Source: a virus
Lineage: Duplodnaviria > Heunggongvirae > Uroviricota > Caudoviricetes
Reading direction: 5' to 3' (one strand)
IMG/VR virus record: IMGVR_UViG_3300031555_004037
Length of the DNA stretch: 64,000 bases
The translations under genes and the position numbers were made by a program. This document shows positions 23,210-57,909 of this stretch, one piece after another; position 1 is the first letter of the stretch; every line of letters begins with the position of its first letter. The notes beneath the pieces are model-generated. The model was given only the letters and a program-made list of their open reading frames with translations. It was not told the origin of the DNA and made no database searches.

Positions 23210-23233
23210 TTTTAATTCCCTTGTAATTTTTTG

Positions 23234-23262
23234 TTTACAAGGGAGTTTTTATGTGTTATACT
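23234..23262 (+). promoter_or_regulatory. SigA-type promoter (cca)
   Basis: TTTACA-N17-TATACT, TG extension. Confidence 0.8.
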
Positions 23263-23299
23263 ATCAATAGTTGATAAAGAAATTAAAGGAGTTGATATT

Positions 23300-24640
23300 A
23301 TGAAAAATATAGAAATGGCAAAGAAAATTGCAGAGAGAGTACATAATCACGGTGGACAGACTTATTTTGTTGGTGGATATGTTAGAGATAAAATTCTCGG
23401 AAAGGAAAACAAGGATATAGATATTGAGGTACATAATATTATTCCAAAGGTACTTAAATCTATTCTCTCCGAACTTGGAGAGATTAAGACTCAAGGTGCT
23501 TCTTTTGGTGTATACAATATTAAGGGATATGATATTGATATTGCACAGCCAAGAAGTGAAATAGCAACAGGTAGGGGTCATAAAGACTTTGAAGTATCTG
23601 TTGACCCTTTTATTGGAACTGAAAAGGCATCAATGAGAAGAGATTTCACTATAAACGCACTTATGGAAGATGTTATTACTGGTGAAATAGTAGACCATTT
23701 TAACGGAGTGCAAGATATTGAAAATGGTATTATTAGACATATTAACGATACTACTTTTAAGGAAGACGCTCTTCGTGTTTTTCGTGCAGCACAATTTGCA
23801 GCAAGATTTGGTTTTGATATTGCTGACGAAACTATTGATATTATGTCAACTATGGATGTATCAACACTTTCAAGAGAAAGAGTATATGAAGAAATGAAAA
23901 AGGCAATGATTAAAGCACCTATGCCATCAACTTTCTTTAATGTACTTAAAATGGCTAATCAACTTGATGTATGGTTTCCAGAAGTAAAGGCACTTATTGG
24001 TTGTCCACAAAATCCAAAATATCATCCAGAGGGAGATGTTTGGAATCATACAATGATGGTTATTGATAATGCTGCTACTATGAGAGATAGTGTTTCTAAT
24101 GCAGAGTTTTTTATGATTGCTGCACTTTGTCACGATTTTGGTAAGCCAGTTGCTACTTGTATTACTGAAAAGGGTGTACAGAGTATTAAGCACGATATTA
24201 TGGGTGTACCTATTGCTAAAGAATTTATGGCTAGAATTAACAATAATGTAGACCTTAATAAGTATGTACTTAATATGGTAGAAAATCATATGGCTCTTCA
24301 TCAGTCTTTCAATAATAAGTCTAAAATTAAGTCTACAAATGCTAAATTTGATATTAGTATTTGTCCTAGTGATATGGTAATGCTTACTATTGCTGATTCT
24401 ATGGGTAAAACTAATACTGAAAATGAAGAGGCAGAATGGATTACTGAAAGATTTAATATTTATAAGGAAACTATAAGTAAACCAGAAGTAATGGGTAAAG
24501 ACCTTATGGCTATGGGTATTATGCCTGGTCCAATTTATAGTGAAATTCTTAAAAATACACATAAGCAACATCTTTCAGGTAGAGATAAGGAATCGGTACT
24601 TAAAGATATTGCTACTAGATATGGTAAAAAGGGGGTATAA
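23300..24640 (+). CDS. cca: CCA-adding tRNA nucleotidyltransferase with HD domain
   Basis: VGGYVRD, KDIDIE, RRDFTINAL, EDALRVFRA, HPEGDVWNHT, HDFGK. Confidence 0.92.
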   Translation: MKNIEMAKKIAERVHNHGGQTYFVGGYVRDKILGKENKDIDIEVHNIIPKVLKSILSELGEIKTQGASFGVYNIKGYDIDIAQPRSEIATGRGHKDFEVSVDPFIGTEKASMRRDFTINALMEDVITGEIVDHFNGVQDIENGIIRHINDTTFKEDALRVFRAAQFAARFGFDIADETIDIMSTMDVSTLSRERVYEEMKKAMIKAPMPSTFFNVLKMANQLDVWFPEVKALIGCPQNPKYHPEGDVWNHTMMVIDNAATMRDSVSNAEFFMIAALCHDFGKPVATCITEKGVQSIKHDIMGVPIAKEFMARINNNVDLNKYVLNMVENHMALHQSFNNKSKIKSTNAKFDISICPSDMVMLTIADSMGKTNTENEEAEWITERFNIYKETISKPEVMGKDLMAMGIMPGPIYSEILKNTHKQHLSGRDKESVLKDIATRYGKKGV

Positions 24641-42712: not shown

Positions 42713-43432
42713 ATATTGTGTGCCAAATTAAATGTTTAGTGAACCCTAGTGAATGAAGAACTAACCACTCTGCTAGGACAGTAATAAGGCTCAAAAGGTT
42801 GAATAACTCGTTGAAACTCGAATGATAGTTTGAGTGTATGCGAAACTCTTAATATATATTGAAGTTTAAGAGTTGGAGAGCGAATGTTCAAGTTATGTGT
42901 TACTGGTGCTAATCATATTGGTAGGTGTAGTGTGACCTGCTTGTGGGCATCGTAATAGACGCTACCTCGAAAGGGTAGAAGAATCCTGGGAACTCGGTAG
43001 TCTGGTAAACTATTTGAGATAGCAGGAAATACCAAAACAAGATGCTTTGCCTTGATAGTCTAGTGATAGACAGTATAACACAAGCATAAGTCGAAAGGCT
43101 GGATAAGCCAAGTAGCCCAATGGCAATAAAAACATTCTAATTTTGAGTTAATAATTCAAGGAATAAAACAGTCGATAGATATTCTTTACTAACTACATAA
43201 ATTATCTGAATGGTTAGGGTGAAATCTGGGAGTGTCGTTCTCTCACGAGTTTTATAAATACACCAAGTAATAATCCGTGTGTTAAACATCGTGTTTATTC
43301 TATGTATTTTAGCCTAAAAAGCGTGGACTTGCTACCCATTGCTCAGATTTAGGTTCTCGTTAGCATAATAACACCGAGATACGATTAGTAAGTCGAAGGA
43401 CTTCAATAAGCATTTAATTTAGTACACAATAT
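42713..43432 (+). ncRNA. Giant ornate ncRNA (~720 nt), GOLLD/ROOL-class candidate
   Basis: About 25-bp terminal helix, long-range helices, GNRA hairpins, no ORF, in tRNA cluster. Confidence 0.8.
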
Positions 43433-43837: not shown

Positions 43838-44192
43838 GGGCTTGTCAGGTTTCGACAGGGCAAATGAAGTCAAATAAGGTAGGTAGAGCAGTCGAGTAAC
43901 TCTTAAAACTGTTTCGGTTAAACATAGTCGCAAGACCTTGTATGTGCGCAGCCTAAGCCGATAATTAGGTACTAATATGATATATGATTTGTCTGTTAAT
44001 CAGTTGTATTAGTTCATCATATAACAGAATATCCGAAGATTGCAAGGAGAAATAATATTAAAAACGCAATACATCTTGTTGTGGCTAATATCGTTTAAGG
44101 TGTAAAGAAAAAGAATCAATTAGCAAAAGTGCCTATGAATAACTTGTTTGGTGGAAATGTTTTGGACAGGGGTTCGACTCCCCTCAAGTCCA
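43838..44192 (+). ncRNA. ssrA: tmRNA, tag (A)ARPCMCAA
   Basis: GGGCTTG/CAAGTCC acceptor with G3-U70, T-arm, UAGUC-GCA resume site, tag 43930-43956. Confidence 0.93.
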
Positions 44193-44195
44193 CTA

Positions 44196-46804: not shown

Positions 46805-46998
46805 GTTGAGTTACTCAAGTGGTTGAAGAGGCAAATATCCTTAAAAGGACTTTGTAGAAAGTTTAATACATATTTTTTGTTATATAGTAAAAATGATAAT
46901 TGACGAATTTGATTTTGGAACAGTAATAAAACTATAATGAAGTACAAATTATAGACAATATTATTAACTTTGCGAGGGTTCAAATCCCCCACTCAACT
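46805..46998 (+). ncRNA. Expanded tRNA-like RNA (Ser-type D-arm, 133-nt insert)
   Basis: GTTGAGT/ACTCAAC acceptor, D-arm, T-arm, GCAAA/TTTGC closing the insert. Confidence 0.75.
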
Positions 46999-51069: not shown

Positions 51070-51218
51070 GGCTCATTTTCTCAATATATGTAATTGAAGC
51101 TAGAATAGATTATGTATGTTAAATAGGAACGAGATGGTAAATATTGAAAACTTATAGTTGTCTAGCCAACTATGACAGAGTATATATTTATTTGGTGGTT
51201 CAAATCCACAATGAGTCG
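51070..51218 (+). ncRNA. Expanded tRNA-like RNA with internal pseudoknot
   Basis: GGCTCAT/ATGAGTC acceptor, T-arm, GCTAGA pairs with loop TCTAGC. Confidence 0.65.
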
Positions 51219-51318: not shown

Positions 51319-52008
51319 ATGATTTTTATAACAGGAGATACACATAGAGATTTTAATAGGATATTTGATTTTAATGAAAGATTTGGTCTAACAGAAGATG
51401 ATATAATGATTATATTAGGAGATGTTGGAATAAATTATTTTGGAGATAAAAGAGATATTAAATTTAAAGAAATGCTTATATCTAAATTAAAATGTACCAT
51501 ATTTGCTATTCACGGTAATCACGAAATGAATCCAGAGAATATGAATATGCAAGAAAAAGTATGGAATAATGGAACTGTTTATTATGAAGAAGAATTTCCA
51601 ACTATTATATATGCAAAAGACGGAGAAATTTATAATCTAAATGGAAAAGAAACATTAGTATTAGGTGGTGCTTATTCTGTTGATAAATATTATAGATTAT
51701 CTCACGGACTTAAATGGTTTGAAGATGAACAAATATCAAATTCTGTAAAAGATAGGTGTATTGCTAATATAGAAAATAATAATTGGAAAGTGGATATTGT
51801 ATTATCACATACAGTACCATATAATTATAGACCTATTGATTTATTTTTAAGTTTTATTGACCAATTTACAGTTGACAATACAATGGAAAATTGGTTACAG
51901 TATATTGAAGATAATTTAACTTATGAAAAATGGTATTGTGGACATTATCATTGTGATAGAGTAGTAGATAAAATTGAAATGATGTTTGATACAATAAAAG
52001 AATTATAA
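51319..52008 (+). CDS. Calcineurin-like metallophosphoesterase
   Basis: GDTH, LGDVG, HGNHE, SHT, CGHYH. Confidence 0.88.
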   Translation: MIFITGDTHRDFNRIFDFNERFGLTEDDIMIILGDVGINYFGDKRDIKFKEMLISKLKCTIFAIHGNHEMNPENMNMQEKVWNNGTVYYEEEFPTIIYAKDGEIYNLNGKETLVLGGAYSVDKYYRLSHGLKWFEDEQISNSVKDRCIANIENNNWKVDIVLSHTVPYNYRPIDLFLSFIDQFTVDNTMENWLQYIEDNLTYEKWYCGHYHCDRVVDKIEMMFDTIKEL

Positions 52009-54272: not shown

Positions 54273-54367
54273 ACCGAAATGATGGGGAATTGGAATACCC
54301 AAGAAGAAACTTTATTAGTTTTGGACGCACTTATATGTGTATGTAGGTTCAAGTCCTACTTTCGGTA
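54273..54367 (+). tRNA. Atypical Leu-type tRNA body with TAT-centred loop and extra linker
   Basis: ACCGAAA/TTTCGGT, GGG/CCC D-stem, GAAAC-TTTATTA-GTTTT, variable arm. Confidence 0.55.
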
Positions 54368-55211: not shown

Positions 55212-55604
55212 ATGTGGAATCTTAAAGACTTGGAAAAAGAAACAAGTAAACTTATCAATAAATATCCAAAAGAGAAAGAGAAAATTCTAAAATATAAGAA
55301 AGATTTTATAAATATGTATAATGACTATATAAATGTTAATGCTATTTATAAAATTATGGAAAATGAAATTGTACCGAATTTTAGAAATAAGATTGAGTAT
55401 TTTGATGAGGTTGATAGAATTATTGACCTTATGGAAAAGGTTACATATATTTTTGATAGTAGCATTGAAGAGTTTAAAGAACATATTTTTATTGAAGAGT
55501 ATTTTCCGTCTATGCGTAATTGGATTGACGGATTAGAATTAGATTCATTAGAAGACTTACATCATATTCAATTAGCGATTTTGGAGATTGATAATAAATG
55601 TTAA
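55212..55604 (+). CDS. Hypothetical protein
   Basis: ORF, SD. Confidence 0.6.
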   Translation: MWNLKDLEKETSKLINKYPKEKEKILKYKKDFINMYNDYINVNAIYKIMENEIVPNFRNKIEYFDEVDRIIDLMEKVTYIFDSSIEEFKEHIFIEEYFPSMRNWIDGLELDSLEDLHHIQLAILEIDNKC

Positions 55605-56122
55605 GAGAACACTTTGGAGAATTACCAACATTAAATACTAATGATATATTATGTTCTATAACAAAATGCTTTAATCAAGAAAGAGATTGGACTTGCTGTA
55701 TTGCTTGTTTAAGAACAATTAGTTCAAATACATTAGGAACAGAAAAAGAGTTAATTGATACATATAATTTTACACCAGGTCCTTATTATTCCAAAGATAT
55801 AAAAAATAAACACATATTAGATAATTATGATGTTATTTATGGGTGTGATATTGAAAATAAAACACCAAAGATGTTATGTAAACTACTTAATGACTATAAT
55901 ATAATGATAGAAACAATGTTAAATTATGACCATTGGTTAGTTGTATTAGGATATTTTACAAACAATACAAATGAGATAAATAAACATCAAATATTATTAT
56001 ATGACCCTTATTTTAATAATGTAAGATTAGAAAATGCCGAAGAAATTTTTAGTATGTGGGTAAGTGGAGAGCATACTATAAATAATATTAAATGTGATTT
56101 TATTGCAATTAGGAGAGATTAA
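55598..56122 (+). CDS. Papain-like C39-type cysteine peptidase
   Basis: NQ..WTCCIAC, DHWLVVLGY, LYDPY. Confidence 0.65.
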   Translation: MLREHFGELPTLNTNDILCSITKCFNQERDWTCCIACLRTISSNTLGTEKELIDTYNFTPGPYYSKDIKNKHILDNYDVIYGCDIENKTPKMLCKLLNDYNIMIETMLNYDHWLVVLGYFTNNTNEINKHQILLYDPYFNNVRLENAEEIFSMWVSGEHTINNIKCDFIAIRRD

Positions 56123-56124
56123 AT

Positions 56125-56286
56125 ATGAAGAAAGAATATATACTTATCCCATTAACAATAATTATTTCTTTTGTATTAGGATATATTATAGGAAGTGATT
56201 TTGGTTGGTCTAGTGCATATAGAGAATTAACAGATTCTTCTGCTTGTAGAATGACCAAACGAAATTATCATAAACAAATAGGTTAA
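56125..56286 (+). CDS. Small membrane protein
   Basis: Manual ORF, one TM, SD. Confidence 0.5.
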   Translation: MKKEYILIPLTIIISFVLGYIIGSDFGWSSAYRELTDSSACRMTKRNYHKQIG

Positions 56287-56375
56287 GAACAAATGATAAC
56301 CTCTTGATTATGGACGCATAATTGAGTAGTAAAATGTGTAGTGGGGCAGTACGACTTTAAATACTGTCAGATTAT

Positions 56376-56447
56376 TGCCCTATGTTGTAATGGTTAGCAA
56401 ACAAGTCTTTGACACTTGGGGTAAGAGTTCGATTCTCTTTGGGGCTG
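56376..56447 (+). tRNA. tRNA-Gln(TTG), second copy
   Basis: CAAGT-CT TTG AC-ACTTG. Confidence 0.9.
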
Positions 56448-56451
56448 CTAT

Positions 56452-56602
56452 GGGTATTAAGTGCAACGAAATATAGATAAATTCTAGGATAGTTTATAAA
56501 GTAGTATTTGGAACGCACAAGATATATAGCAAAGTAATAATTCTTCCTAGTAGATTATTATGATTATGATATATTGAGCAAGTTCAAATCTTGTAATACT
56601 CT
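56452..56602 (+). ncRNA. Expanded tRNA-like RNA with enlarged D- and anticodon arms
   Basis: GGGTATT/AATACTC, GTGC/GCAC, GATATAT/ATATATT, GCAAG-TTCAAAT-CTTGT; loops CTAGGA/TCCTAG. Confidence 0.75.
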
Positions 56603-56607
56603 CTTAT

Positions 56608-56681
56608 GGGTGTGTAAAGATAATTGGAAATCGCTCGGACTCCAAATCCGTAGTACGAGGGTTCGATTCCTTCCTCACCTG
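56608..56681 (+). tRNA. tRNA-Trp(CCA)
   Basis: CGGA-CT CCA AA-TCCG, G73. Confidence 0.9.
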
Positions 56682-56779
56682 TTATTAAACACACTAAATT
56701 AAATACATTAGCATCAAATCCTGCATATTATAGAAGAGTTTTTGATTATGCTTATTAGATTTGATAGAAAGGAATTTAT

Positions 56780-57214
56780 ATGAATTATATTGGAATTGAC
56801 CCTGGTAAAAATGGTGGAATTGCAGTTATATCTGATAATGGAGATATTATTAGTTTACATACTTTTTCAGAAGAAATTATAGTAGATGTATTACATAAAC
56901 ATAGAGATTGTAAGTGTGTTTTAGAAAAAGTAAATGCTATGCCAGGTCAGGGTGTGGTATCAATGTTTAATTTTGGAGTTAATTTTGGTTTTATTCAAGG
57001 TGTGTTAAAATCAAATGAAATTCCTTTTGAATTAACTCCCCCTCAAAAATGGAAGAAAGAATTTAGTGTTACAAAAGATAAAAATACATCTATTGAGGTA
57101 GCAAAAAGATTATTTCCTAATGTAAATCTAAAAGCAACTGATAGATGTAAAAAAGACCACGATGGTTTAGCAGAATCACTTTTAATGGCAGAATATGCTA
57201 GAAGAAAATTATAA
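56780..57214 (+). CDS. RuvC-like Holliday junction resolvase
   Basis: IGIDPG, VLEKV, MFNFG, P.KWK, DGLAESLL. Confidence 0.85.
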   Translation: MNYIGIDPGKNGGIAVISDNGDIISLHTFSEEIIVDVLHKHRDCKCVLEKVNAMPGQGVVSMFNFGVNFGFIQGVLKSNEIPFELTPPQKWKKEFSVTKDKNTSIEVAKRLFPNVNLKATDRCKKDHDGLAESLLMAEYARRKL

Positions 57215-57221
57215 TATATAT

Positions 57222-57254
57222 GTCCTCGTAGTCTAATGGATAGGCAACGGACTT
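57222..57254 (+). pseudogene. 5' half of a tRNA truncated in the anticodon loop
   Basis: GTCCTCG-TA-GTCT-AATGGAT-AGGC-A-ACGGA-CTT, no 3' half. Confidence 0.7.
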
Positions 57255-57258
57255 ATAA

Positions 57259-57331
57259 GCACCAATAGCTCAATGGAGAGAGCAATGGGTTTCTACCCCA
57301 TAGGTTGTGAGTTCAAATCTTACTTGGTGCA
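57259..57331 (+). tRNA. tRNA-Arg(TCT)
   Basis: ATGGG-TT TCT AC-CCCAT. Confidence 0.9.
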
Positions 57332-57349
57332 TTTTTAGGAGAGATTTAT

Positions 57350-57909
57350 ATGATTGCTTATTATGACGGAATGAAAATTTATTTTAATGGTCTTTATCCA
57401 GAAGTTAATTTTCCAACTCATCCAAAGGCTCGTTCTAATGGTCGAGTATATATTCATATATTACAAATGGAGAAAAAATTAAAAAGACCATTAACTAATG
57501 AAGAGGTTGTACACCACAAAGACCAAAATAGAGAAAATTTTGAATTTGATAATTTATGGTGTTTTGCAACAAGGGCAGACCACGCTCGTTTTCATAATGG
57601 TGGAATTGCTATTAAAAAGGAGATGTATACATAAGTATATATTCAAAAAATACACAAAAAACCTGTAAAAAATGTGGAAAATTTATAAATTACCAAAGTA
57701 AAAATTATTGTGTTTGTTGTTATCAAAATTCATTAAAAATTGATGGTGGATTACGAAAAGTAATTAAACCAACAAAAGAAGAATTAGAAAAACTAATATA
57801 TACTGATTCTTTTTTATCCATTGGTAAAAAATATGGTGTTAGTGATAATGCTGTAAGAAAATGGTGTAAATCTTATAATTTACCCTATCGTAAAAAAGAT
57901 TTGATATAG
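57350..57909 (+). pseudogene. Frameshifted HNH homing endonuclease (HNH + Zn finger + HTH)
   Basis: VHHKDQNRENF..NL; one extra A at 57614-57618 joins it to CKKCG..KKYGVSDNAVRKW. Confidence 0.8.

What the first reader, a model, noticed from the sequence alone, without database searches (positions are those of the whole stretch)
56452..56602. Expanded tRNA-like RNA whose enlarged D- and anticodon loops can kiss
Seen: 7-bp acceptor, D-stem GTGC/GCAC enclosing about 50 nt, anticodon-position stem GATATAT/ATATATT enclosing about 41 nt, and a canonical T-arm. The D-domain loop has CTAGGA (56484-89) and the anticodon-domain loop has TCCTAG (56545-50), perfectly complementary. There is no 7-nt anticodon loop, so it cannot decode. 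Inference: a tRNA mimic that keeps the elbow and acceptor end (RNase P, CCA enzyme, EF-Tu or synthetase substrate) while swapping decoding for a new tertiary module, comparable in concept to tmRNA or YrlA Y RNAs.
Basis: partly seen in the sequence, partly recalled or inferred. Interest (0 to 1): 0.8.

Follow-up and report, generated by a model that had tools for sequence, protein, structure and literature searches.

The report
Phage tRNA-shaped RNA with pairing loops
Among the tRNA genes of a giant gut phage lies a conserved 150-base RNA that keeps the top half of a tRNA but replaces the decoding arm with two long hairpins whose tips match each other, a layout that RNAC of phage T4 (function unknown) also appears to have; what it does is not known.

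Summary
56452-56602 folds as a cloverleaf: a 7-bp acceptor stem, D stem GUGC/GCAC around a 50-nt insert, a 7-bp stem carrying an extended hairpin, and a canonical T arm. CUAGGA (56484-89) and UCCUAG (56545-50) each lie in a 7-nt apical loop.

It is not a one-off. A covariance model found a paralog in the same window (51070-51218) and members in four other contigs. These include a second jumbo-phage lineage with no detectable protein similarity. Every copy abuts tRNA genes on the tRNA strand.

Across 8 sequences, 90% of cells pair and 24 of 47 pairs show compensatory changes (0/500 shuffles). The loop complementarity is kept in all of them: X type CUAGGA/UCCUAG, Y type GCUAGA/UCUAGC. There is one G-C to A-U double change around an invariant palindromic CUAG core. 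That supports pairing but does not prove it.

ARAGORN and Rfam do not recognise it, and the arm is too long to decode. Expression and processing could not be tested.

The closest known analogue is T4 RNAC, not tmRNA or YrlA. RNAC has the same layout, including conserved complementary loops, but shows no detectable homology.

This scan has noted similar kissing-loop tRNA look-alikes in other phages (unchecked AI notes).

Verdict: a real, selected, non-decoding tRNA-shaped RNA family of unknown function.

The parts
56452..56602 (+). X: the whole 151-nt tRNA-shaped RNA gene (acceptor 5' strand to discriminator U)
   Evidence: MFE cloverleaf. Covariance models R1 and R2 score 179.7 and 149.4 bits. 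Starts 3 nt after tRNA-Gln and ends 5 nt before tRNA-Trp.
56452..56458 (+). Acceptor stem, 5' strand (pairs with 56595-56601)
   Evidence: 100% paired in 8 sequences; 4 of 7 pairs have changes on both sides.
56461..56464 (+). D stem, 5' strand GUGC (pairs with 56515-56518 GCAC)
   Evidence: 100% paired; 3 of 4 pairs compensatory (GUGC/GCAC versus UCUC/GAGA or UUUC/GAAA).
56469..56509 (+). Hairpin inserted in the D loop: lower stem 56469-74/56504-09, upper stem 56477-83/56491-97, 7-nt loop 56484-90
   Evidence: MFE fold. The Y-type members have a hairpin at the same place with a 12-nt loop.
56484..56489 (+). Loop hexamer CUAGGA (D-domain partner of the proposed kissing pair)
56510..56514 (+). 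GGAAC, invariant in all 8 members; G18/G19-like bases that could dock on the T loop
   Evidence: Invariant columns in alignments A6 and A8. The docking role is inferred from tRNA structure.
56521..56575 (+). Extended 'anticodon' arm: lower stem 56521-27/56569-75, internal loop, upper stem 56534-44/56552-61, 7-nt loop 56545-51
   Evidence: Lower stem 100% paired with 6 of 7 pairs compensatory; upper stem 92% paired with 4 compensatory pairs. RNAalifold predicts both stems independently.
56545..56550 (+). Loop hexamer UCCUAG (anticodon-domain partner of the proposed kissing pair)
56578..56594 (+). T arm GCAAG / UUCAAAU / CUUGU
   Evidence: GUUCAAAUC is invariant in all members.
56595..56601 (+). 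Acceptor stem, 3' strand; no CCA is encoded after discriminator U56602
51070..51218 (+). Yw: a 149-nt paralog of the same family, between tRNA-Gly(UCC) and tRNA-Leu(UAG). Loop hexamers GCUAGA (51099-51104) and UCUAGC (51161-51166).
   Evidence: R1 36.4 bits, E = 2.5e-6; R2 135 bits (but Yw is one of the three R2 training sequences). Own fold z = -2.71. 100% identical in two JGI contigs.
56376..56448 (+). tRNA-Gln(UUG), the upstream neighbour
56608..56681 (+). tRNA-Trp(CCA), the downstream neighbour (found by Rfam only)
23231..24640 (+). Phage tRNA nucleotidyltransferase (CCA-adding enzyme); could supply the 3' CCA that no gene of the array encodes
   Evidence: Pfam PolyA_pol + HD and PHROG 2244. 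Its link to X is inferred.

Best explanation
X is a gene for a ~150-nt non-decoding RNA built on a tRNA frame. It belongs to a small, undescribed family carried in the tRNA arrays of at least two unrelated lineages of AT-rich jumbo gut phages.

Shown:
- A cloverleaf-like four-way junction is conserved: 7-bp (possibly 8-bp) acceptor stem, 4-bp D stem, invariant GGAAC in the D loop, invariant GUUCAAAUC T loop.
- A hairpin is inserted in the D loop, and the anticodon arm is lengthened to two stacked stems.
- Many compensatory substitutions occur in every core helix.
- The apical loops of the two added hairpins always carry mutually complementary hexamers around a CUAG core.

Inferred:
- The RNA is co-transcribed with its tRNA neighbours.
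- It is cut out by RNase P and the 3' tRNA-processing nucleases.
- It receives CCA, possibly from the phage's own CCA-adding enzyme.
- The two loops form a 6-bp kissing complex. This ties the D-side hairpin to the tip of the long arm, buries the anticodon-like loop and makes a rigid closed body under a normal tRNA elbow and acceptor end.

Function is the least certain part. I take it to be a stable tRNA mimic that engages a protein recognising the tRNA top half without entering decoding, for example as a decoy or sponge in the phage-host contest over tRNAs. T4 RNAC may be the same kind of thing.
For: Structure and position:
- The sequence and its unconstrained fold give the cloverleaf with both hexamers in 7-nt loops.
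- X sits 3 nt after tRNA-Gln and 5 nt before tRNA-Trp on the tRNA strand. It is one of only two orphan perfect T arms among + strand candidates.

Family:
- Models R1 and R2 find Yw in the window, Y91 in L091 (E = 9.5e-9 with the X-only model), and Y205, Y223 and Y224 in a second lineage.
- The second lineage has no tblastx similarity to the window.
- All copies lie 2-12 nt from flanking tRNAs.

Covariation:
- 90.1% of cells pair and 24 of 47 pairs change on both sides (0/500 shuffles). Slid controls pair in at most 47% of cells.
- RNAalifold predicts the same core on its own, with 21 of 33 pairs compensatory.

Loops:
- 6 bp are kept in all 8 sequences: X CUAGGA/UCCUAG, Y GCUAGA/UCUAGC, with a G-C to A-U double change.
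- Duplex energies are -6.6 and -6.7 kcal/mol. The chance of a 6-nt match between two random 7-mers is 0.0027.
- No phage tRNA anticodon loop matches the loops better than they match each other.

Transcription context:
- In L205 the member sits inside an operon with a 12/12 sigma-70 promoter and flanking terminators.
- The phage encodes a CCA-adding enzyme.

Precedent:
- T4 RNAC is a stable RNA from the T4 tRNA cluster (PMC3014915, PMC9697503).
- It folds as an acceptor-like stem, two long hairpins and a T arm, with conserved complementary loops UUGACG/CGUCAA.
Against: - No expression or end-mapping data exist.
- X alone folds no better than shuffled sequence (z = -0.74).
- The kissing helix rests on an invariant palindromic core plus a single compensatory event that separates the two subtypes. 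The shuffle control reaches the observed score in 33 of 500 trials. Inside the Y subtype the loops never vary, so they say nothing about pairing.
- X is absent from the nearest distinct relative, where tRNA-Gln and tRNA-Trp abut. X itself is therefore dispensable or recent.
- Near-identity of X among close strains is uninformative. The whole block downstream of tRNA-Gln is about 98% identical.
- The junction differs from a real tRNA: a 1-2 nt variable region, and A8 in X. The L-shape is therefore assumed.
- The covariation alignment was fitted to the model's structure.
- Whether the two loops can reach each other within one molecule was not modelled.
- The decoy function has no direct evidence.
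Confidence: 0.6

Rival explanations
1. The loops pair between molecules, not within one. The D-side loop of one RNA kisses the long-arm loop of the next, giving head-to-tail dimers, rings or cages. Phi29 pRNA does this with two complementary loops, and ROOL RNA, encoded 13 kb upstream in this same array, forms cages.
For: - Two complementary loops sit on arms that leave the junction in different directions.
- The two paralogs in one genome carry different 'addresses': cognate pairs give 6 Watson-Crick bp, cross pairs give 4 plus a G-U. Selection against mixed assemblies would produce this.
- ROOL is present at 42721-43421.
Against: - Nothing here separates intra- from intermolecular pairing.
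- The linear spacing of the loops relative to the core is very constant (26-27, 36-37 and 35-36 nt). That suits a fixed intramolecular geometry at least as well.
- No assembly data exist.
Confidence: 0.18
2. The loops do not pair at all. Each presents the same CUAG-centred motif to a protein, for example a dimer, or to another ligand. The complementarity is then a by-product of CUAG being a palindrome.
For: - The four core pairs never vary in 8 sequences.
- The whole 12-nt D-side loop (GAAGCUAGAAUA) is invariant in all five Y-type sequences, which is more conservation than a 6-bp helix needs.
- Statistical support for pairing is modest (33/500).
Against: - Complementarity extends two pairs beyond the palindrome in both subtypes, using different flanking positions, with one G-C to A-U double change.
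- By my estimate, two extra contiguous pairs in each of two independent subtypes occur by chance a few percent of the time.
- The T4 RNAC loops UUGACG/CGUCAA are complementary but not palindromic. In phage KaAlpha the complementarity extends to 12 or more bp.
Confidence: 0.15
3. It is a decaying tRNA gene (pseudogene) that picked up AT-rich insertions, or a chance tRNA-like fold.
For: - X alone has z = -0.74.
- X is missing in L091.
- tRNA finders reject it.
Against: - The architecture and insert lengths are kept in two phage lineages with no detectable protein similarity.
- Members are 61-81% identical pairwise between distinct types, with 24 compensatory pairs including pairs inside the inserts.
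Confidence: 0.03
4. It is a working tRNA after all: an amber (CUA) suppressor or similar with an exotic long arm, or a tRNA whose inserts are removed by splicing.
For: - Both subtypes show N-CUA-G in the long-arm loop.
Against: - The loop is about 17 bp plus an internal loop from the junction. It has 6 nt in three of the four Y-type sequences folded here (9 nt in Y91) and C33 in X.
- No group I intron or other Rfam match.
- TAG closes 8 of 58 long frames in the window.
Confidence: 0.03

Closest known systems
Phage T4 RNAC (species 1 RNA, 139 nt; NC_000866 70908-71046) and its Tevenvirinae homologs
   Same: - Encoded in the phage tRNA cluster on the tRNA strand, next to a tRNA.
- About 140 nt.
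- Acceptor-like terminal stem and canonical T arm, with two long hairpins in between.
- The hairpin loops carry conserved complementary hexamers, UUGACG and CGUCAA. They are invariant across T4, IME523, KM16 and KaAlpha while the stems change, and the complementarity extends to 12 or more bp in KaAlpha.
- Function unknown (PMC3014915, PMC9697503).
   Different: - No detectable homology. Model R2 scores it 15.6 bits, no better than ordinary T4 tRNAs.
- No separate D stem with a GG loop.
- GC-rich.
- RNAC is experimentally known to be a stable late RNA; X is not.
- That the RNAC loops can pair is my own reading of the sequences. I did not find it in the papers I read.
Canonical tRNA (Rfam RF00005) and 8/4 'allo-tRNAs' (Mukai et al. 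2017, PMC5389517)
   Same: - Acceptor stem, D stem, GG in the D loop, UUCAAAU T loop, tight spacing in a tRNA array.
- Position 8 covaries with the first T-stem partner (A-U in X, U-A in Y). The branch may therefore be 8/4 as in allo-tRNAs.
   Different: - About 40 nt hairpin in the D loop.
- Anticodon arm of two stems (17-19 bp plus an internal loop).
- Variable region of 1-2 nt.
- Not found by ARAGORN or RF00005 even at E = 10.
YrlA / bacterial Y RNAs (Rfam RF02553)
   Same: A concept only: a tRNA-like module joined to another structured module. Some are phage-encoded.
   Different: - RF02553 does not match X, Yw or Y205.
- No Ro-binding stem.
- In YrlA the acceptor end continues into the Y stem, whereas here the acceptor end is free.
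tmRNA (Rfam RF00023)
   Same: A tRNA-like acceptor and T arm without a decoding anticodon. A true tmRNA lies in the same array (43838-44195).
   Different: No tag reading frame, no pseudoknot ring, has a D stem, and no RF00023 match.
Phi29 pRNA
   Same: A small phage RNA with two mutually complementary loops (from my own knowledge).
   Different: pRNA is not tRNA-like, is not in a tRNA array, and its loops are known to pair between molecules on the prohead. Nothing of that is known here.

Membership tests
Canonical tRNA (RF00005) | 7-bp acceptor stem, and a T arm with a 5-bp stem and U-U-C-R-A-N-Y loop | tested here: met
Canonical tRNA (RF00005) | 5-bp anticodon stem with a 7-nt loop (U33, purine 37) at a fixed distance from the junction | tested here: not met
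   7-10 bp lower stem, internal loop, then 8-10 bp upper stem. The loop has C33 (X), 6 nt (Yw, Y205, Y223) or 9 nt (Y91).
Canonical tRNA (RF00005) | Recognised by the tRNA covariance model or ARAGORN | tested here: not met
   No hit at E up to 10. Not in the ARAGORN list.
T4 RNAC-type stable RNA of phage tRNA clusters | Encoded inside a phage tRNA cluster on the same strand, 120-150 nt, terminal acceptor-like stem plus T arm | tested here: met
T4 RNAC-type stable RNA of phage tRNA clusters | Sequence or structure-profile homology to RNAC | tested here: not met
   R2 scores rnaC 15.6 bits, within the range of ordinary tRNAs. Blastn searches with three queries covering or belonging to the family found no rnaC-like hit.
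T4 RNAC-type stable RNA of phage tRNA clusters | Accumulates as a stable, end-processed RNA during infection | not testable with these tools
   No RNA run holds the stretch.
YrlA / Y RNA (RF02553) | Match to the YrlA model (tRNA-like domain plus Ro-binding stem) | tested here: not met
   In L205 the only weak YrlA match (23 bits against a gathering score of 69) lies on ordinary tRNAs, not on Y205.
YrlA / Y RNA (RF02553) | A Ro60/Rsr gene nearby | not tested
   Only about 20 of the window's ORFs were scanned against Pfam; none was TROVE.
tmRNA (RF00023) | Tag reading frame and pseudoknots between the halves of the tRNA-like domain | tested here: not met
   ARAGORN and Rfam call a tmRNA only at 43838-44195.
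allo-tRNA (8/4 acceptor/T branch) | 8-bp acceptor stem with a 4-bp T stem | tested here: inconclusive
   RNAalifold pairs column 8 with the first T-stem 3' base: A-U in 3 sequences and U-A in 5. In X a 7/5 arrangement with G-U is equally possible.
tRNA interrupted by a group I intron | Intron core recognisable; insert of 200 nt or more in the anticodon loop | tested here: not met
   The inserts are about 40 and 34 nt. No intron family appears in Rfam searches.

The most novel reading that the evidence does not exclude
Phages of very different lineages share a functional design. The lineages are these AT-rich gut jumbo phages, T4-like phages (RNAC) and, if the scan's earlier unchecked notes hold, marine, Caulobacter and Streptomyces phages. 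The design is a tRNA top half carrying two arms whose loops pair. The paired loops either lock the RNA into a closed body that traps a host tRNA-targeting defence or processing enzyme, or link copies head to tail into rings. This would give a first mechanistic handle on T4 RNAC, whose role is still listed as unknown.
Probability: 0.2. Interest if true: 0.85.

Novelty: new variant of a known kind. Interest (0 to 1): 0.68.

Why it matters
Phage tRNA arrays are usually read as codon-supply or defence-evasion kits. This finding shows that the arrays also carry conserved passengers that use the tRNA shape but cannot decode.

The family is absent from Rfam and from tRNA finders, so it goes unannotated in jumbo-phage genomes.

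Its layout matches that of T4 RNAC, an abundant RNA whose role is still listed as unknown (PMC3014915, PMC9697503). Comparative data from unrelated phages now point to one specific, testable feature, the loop-loop complementarity. The L205 operon, with its consensus sigma-70 promoter, offers a construct that should express in ordinary laboratory bacteria.

Tried and rejected
**Expression**
- No listed RNA run holds the X stretch.
- Contigs of two metatranscriptome runs laid on 55500-57500 cover only short conserved tRNA pieces and do not cover X.
- This is no evidence either way.

**Homolog hunts that found nothing**
- GenBank phages by blastn or megablast.
- IMG/VR by exact T-arm/acceptor word, by the X loop pattern, by a loop-free pattern and by the family pattern. 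All matches were chance matches rejected by the model.
- 80 IMG/VR loci around RuvC-like homologs. They have no member, and only one of them has any tRNA genes.
- 80 IMG/VR loci around radical-SAM homologs. These are unrelated phages with almost no tRNAs.
- The neighbouring 174-aa and 328-aa proteins have no IMG/VR relatives.
- More distant homologs of the 174-aa protein (L093-L095) and of the Metallophos proteins (L118, L119) are not in tRNA arrays. L225/L226 lie in a tRNA array but have no member.
- RuvC homologs at about 78% identity sit in small phages.
- The GTDB genome pattern scan gave only chance matches.

The metagenome pattern scan clearly misses contigs that do hold the family. Yw is 100% identical in two JGI contigs reached another way, so absence from these scans is weak evidence.

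The genome search holds neither this genome nor the records behind L086 and L205.

**Ideas dropped**
- X descends from one identifiable tRNA. The best candidate, a tRNA-Leu with a near-identical T arm, is unconvincing elsewhere.
- CTAGGA is enriched in the window: 14 found against 15 expected.
- The loops target a phage tRNA anticodon loop: no match of 6 nt or more.
- High conservation of X among strains shows selection: the whole downstream block is about 98% identical.

Full report
**Setting**

The window is 25% GC. It carries phage genes, including a split family-A DNA polymerase, a RuvC-like resolvase, a sigma factor and a CCA-adding enzyme.

Between 38.6 and 59.3 kb it holds 34 tRNA genes, a tmRNA and a ROOL RNA, all on the + strand. 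A near-identical contig is 317.5 kb long, so this is a jumbo phage. The DNA runs that hold it are animal faecal and gut samples, bovine and sheep among them.

**Checking the observation**

The unconstrained minimum-free-energy fold of 56452-56602 is exactly the proposed four-way junction:
- a 7-bp acceptor stem;
- a 4-bp D stem around a 50-nt insert that forms its own hairpin with the 7-nt loop CUAGGAU;
- a 7-bp stem, an internal loop and a 10-bp hairpin with the 7-nt loop UCCUAGU;
- the T arm GCAAG/UUCAAAU/CUUGU.

X starts 3 nt after tRNA-Gln(UUG) and ends 5 nt before tRNA-Trp(CCA). Neither ARAGORN nor any Rfam model reports it, even at E = 10.

A scan for perfect T arms followed by a 7-bp acceptor pairing found only two orphan T arms on the + strand, X and 54273-54366.

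Taken alone, X is weak evidence. Its fold energy has z = -0.74, and a 6-nt complement between two random 7-mers of this window has P = 0.0027.

**Close relatives**

Contigs carrying the neighbouring RuvC-like gene at 94-99% identity also carry X, with five substitutions in all.
- The four in predicted pairs keep pairing: G-U to A-U, A-U to G-U twice, and C-G to U-G.
- The fifth lies in an internal loop.

This is only weak support. In L081 the whole block from X onward is about 98% identical, while the block upstream, including tRNA-Gln, is about 87% identical. The pattern therefore looks like a recombination boundary, not selection on X.

In the next relative (L091, neighbouring protein 76% identical), tRNA-Gln and tRNA-Trp abut and X is absent from that place.

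**A family**

A covariance model of X alone (R1) found two full-length matches:
- window 51070-51218 (Yw, E = 2.5e-6), between tRNA-Gly and tRNA-Leu;
- L091 9039-9190 (Y91, E = 9.5e-9), directly after tRNA-Val.

I derived a pattern from blocks shared by these three sequences. It left the long-arm loop unconstrained. In a metagenome scan it found Y205 in a 66.7-kb contig.
- That contig has no tblastx similarity to the window or to L091.
- A sister contig reaches 243.6 kb.

Relatives of that phage, reached through its Metallophos protein, carry Y223 and Y224 at the syntenic place between tRNA-Met and tRNA-Arg(ACG).

In L205 the member lies inside a compact unit. A 12/12 consensus sigma-70 promoter is followed by eight tRNAs plus Y205 and then a terminator-like hairpin. 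This is the best available, though indirect, argument for co-transcription with tRNAs.

Pairwise identity between distinct members is 61-81%. Yw and Y91 fold well on their own, with z = -2.7 and -3.4.

No member was found in IMG/VR or in GenBank phages. These scans demonstrably miss true copies.

**Covariation**

I counted pairs on the 8-sequence alignment A8.
- 90.1% of cells form standard pairs, against 68.6% in shuffles.
- 24 of 47 pairs change on both sides, a count that 0 of 500 shuffles reached.
- Sliding the partners by 1-3 columns drops pairing to 36-47%.

The acceptor stem, the D stem and the lower long-arm stem are 100% paired, with 4/7, 3/4 and 6/7 compensatory pairs respectively.

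This alignment was fitted to the model, which favours the structure. RNAalifold, folding freely on the same alignment, recovers the same core, with 21 of 33 pairs compensatory. It also pairs position 8 with the first T-stem partner (A-U in X, U-A in Y), which hints at an 8/4 acceptor/T branch.

GGAAC before the 3' D strand and GUUCAAAUC in the T arm are invariant. That is what the G18/G19 to T-loop elbow contact of tRNA would require; the contact itself is inferred.

The distances between the first CUAG, GGAACG, the second CUAG and the T loop are constant to within 1 nt across the X, Yw and Y91 copies measured.

**The loops**

All members keep 6 bp of loop-loop complementarity:
- X type: CUAGGA with UCCUAG;
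- Y type: GCUAGA with UCUAGC, extended to 7 nt in the L205 group.

The four central pairs are the palindrome CUAG and never vary.
- The pair 3' of the core in the D-side loop switches G-C to A-U between the types.
- One further pair exists only in X and another only in Y.

So each subtype reaches 6 bp by different flanking pairs. The shuffle control reaches the observed score in 33 of 500 trials. That favours real pairing but does not settle it.

The five Y-type sequences have identical loops. Indeed the whole 12-nt D-side loop is identical, so something more than a 6-bp helix may be constrained there.

The predicted duplexes are worth -6.6 and -6.7 kcal/mol. No tRNA of the array has an anticodon loop with 6 nt or more of complementarity to either loop.

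**What it cannot be**

- A decoding tRNA. The anticodon-like loop is far too distant from the junction and is irregular. TAG is still used as a stop, closing 8 of 58 long frames.
- An intron-bearing tRNA. The inserts are 34-40 nt and no intron model matches.
- A tmRNA or a YrlA.
- A pseudogene, given the compensatory changes across unrelated phages.

**Closest precedent**

- rnaC is annotated in the T4 tRNA cluster just downstream of tRNA-Arg and rnaD.
- It folds as an acceptor-like stem, two long hairpins and a T arm (z = -4.6).
- It has UUGACG at the tip of the first hairpin and CGUCAA as the loop of the second.
- Both hexamers are invariant in T4, IME523, KM16 and the divergent KaAlpha, while the stems differ.
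- In KaAlpha the complementarity extends to 12 or more bp.

Reviews state that the roles of RNAC and RNAD are unknown (PMC3014915, PMC9697503). R2 does not recognise rnaC above ordinary tRNAs. This is therefore the same layout, not demonstrable common descent.

**Interpretation**

I read X as a non-decoding tRNA-shaped RNA. Its tRNA top half should make it a substrate or ligand of proteins that recognise the acceptor/T-arm/elbow. Its two added arms are tied together, within or between molecules, by a loop-loop helix.

Steps shown:
- gene position;
- conserved secondary structure;
- conserved loop complementarity.

Steps inferred:
- transcription and processing;
- CCA addition;
- the L-shape;
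- the kiss;
- any function.

A decoy or sponge role in the tRNA-centred phage-host conflict is my preferred guess. It has no direct evidence.

The scan's notebook lists similar 'tRNA-shaped RNA with kissing loops' findings in other phage groups. These are AI notes that I did not verify. I treat them as a hint that the design is widespread, not as support.

Noticed in passing
window 54273-54366: A second orphan T arm. This 94-nt tRNA-like gene lies directly after tRNA-Val. It has acceptor ACCGAAA/UUUCGGU, a D arm, an anticodon-like hairpin with loop UUUAUUA and a long extra arm (fold z = -2.2). ARAGORN and Rfam both miss it.
   Followed up: partly
window 46805-46998 and L091:17-155: Another expanded tRNA-like element: a Ser-type acceptor and D arm, a large insert, then a T arm. 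It is conserved between the window and L091 but about 55 nt shorter in L091. It scores weakly with model R2 (28.7 bits) and belongs to a different family from X and Y.
   Followed up: partly
L222:2909-3047 (T4 rnaC, NC_000866 70908-71046), L227-L229: The two hairpins of T4 RNAC carry complementary hexamers, UUGACG and CGUCAA. They are invariant in four Tevenvirinae genera while the stems vary. In Klebsiella phage KaAlpha the complementary stretch is 12 or more bp. I did not see this stated in the papers I read.
   Followed up: partly
window 56608-56681: tRNA-Trp(CCA) is found by Rfam (41.4 bits) but not by ARAGORN. Its D stem has mismatches.
   Followed up: no
window 56682-56767; L081:4521-4988: Relatives have a 155-aa ORF between tRNA-Trp and the RuvC-like gene. 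The window keeps only its last ~86 nt, so about 400 bp have been deleted here or inserted there.
   Followed up: no
L081:4181-4262 versus window 56370-56451: A sharp change in divergence falls at the tRNA-Gln/X border. Identity is about 87% upstream, with a dozen mostly compensatory changes in tRNA-Gln, and about 98% downstream. This suggests recombination between array modules at tRNA boundaries.
   Followed up: partly
L205:5700-6740: A complete tRNA operon: an upstream terminator, a perfect TTGACA-17-TATAAT promoter, eight tRNAs plus Y205, then a terminator-like hairpin. A Metallophos phosphoesterase gene lies just upstream, as one lies next to Yw in the window (51319-52008). The two proteins are not close relatives.
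   Followed up: partly
window, + strand frames: TGA closes only 1 of 58 open frames of 120 codons or more (TAA 49, TAG 8). This may simply reflect 25% GC, but it could be checked against TGA recoding.
   Followed up: no
L225:7498-7685: In a 672-kb contig, the place between tRNA-Met and tRNA-Gln holds a different 188-nt structured spacer (fold -34.6 kcal/mol). It has no T arm and no match to the family.
   Followed up: no
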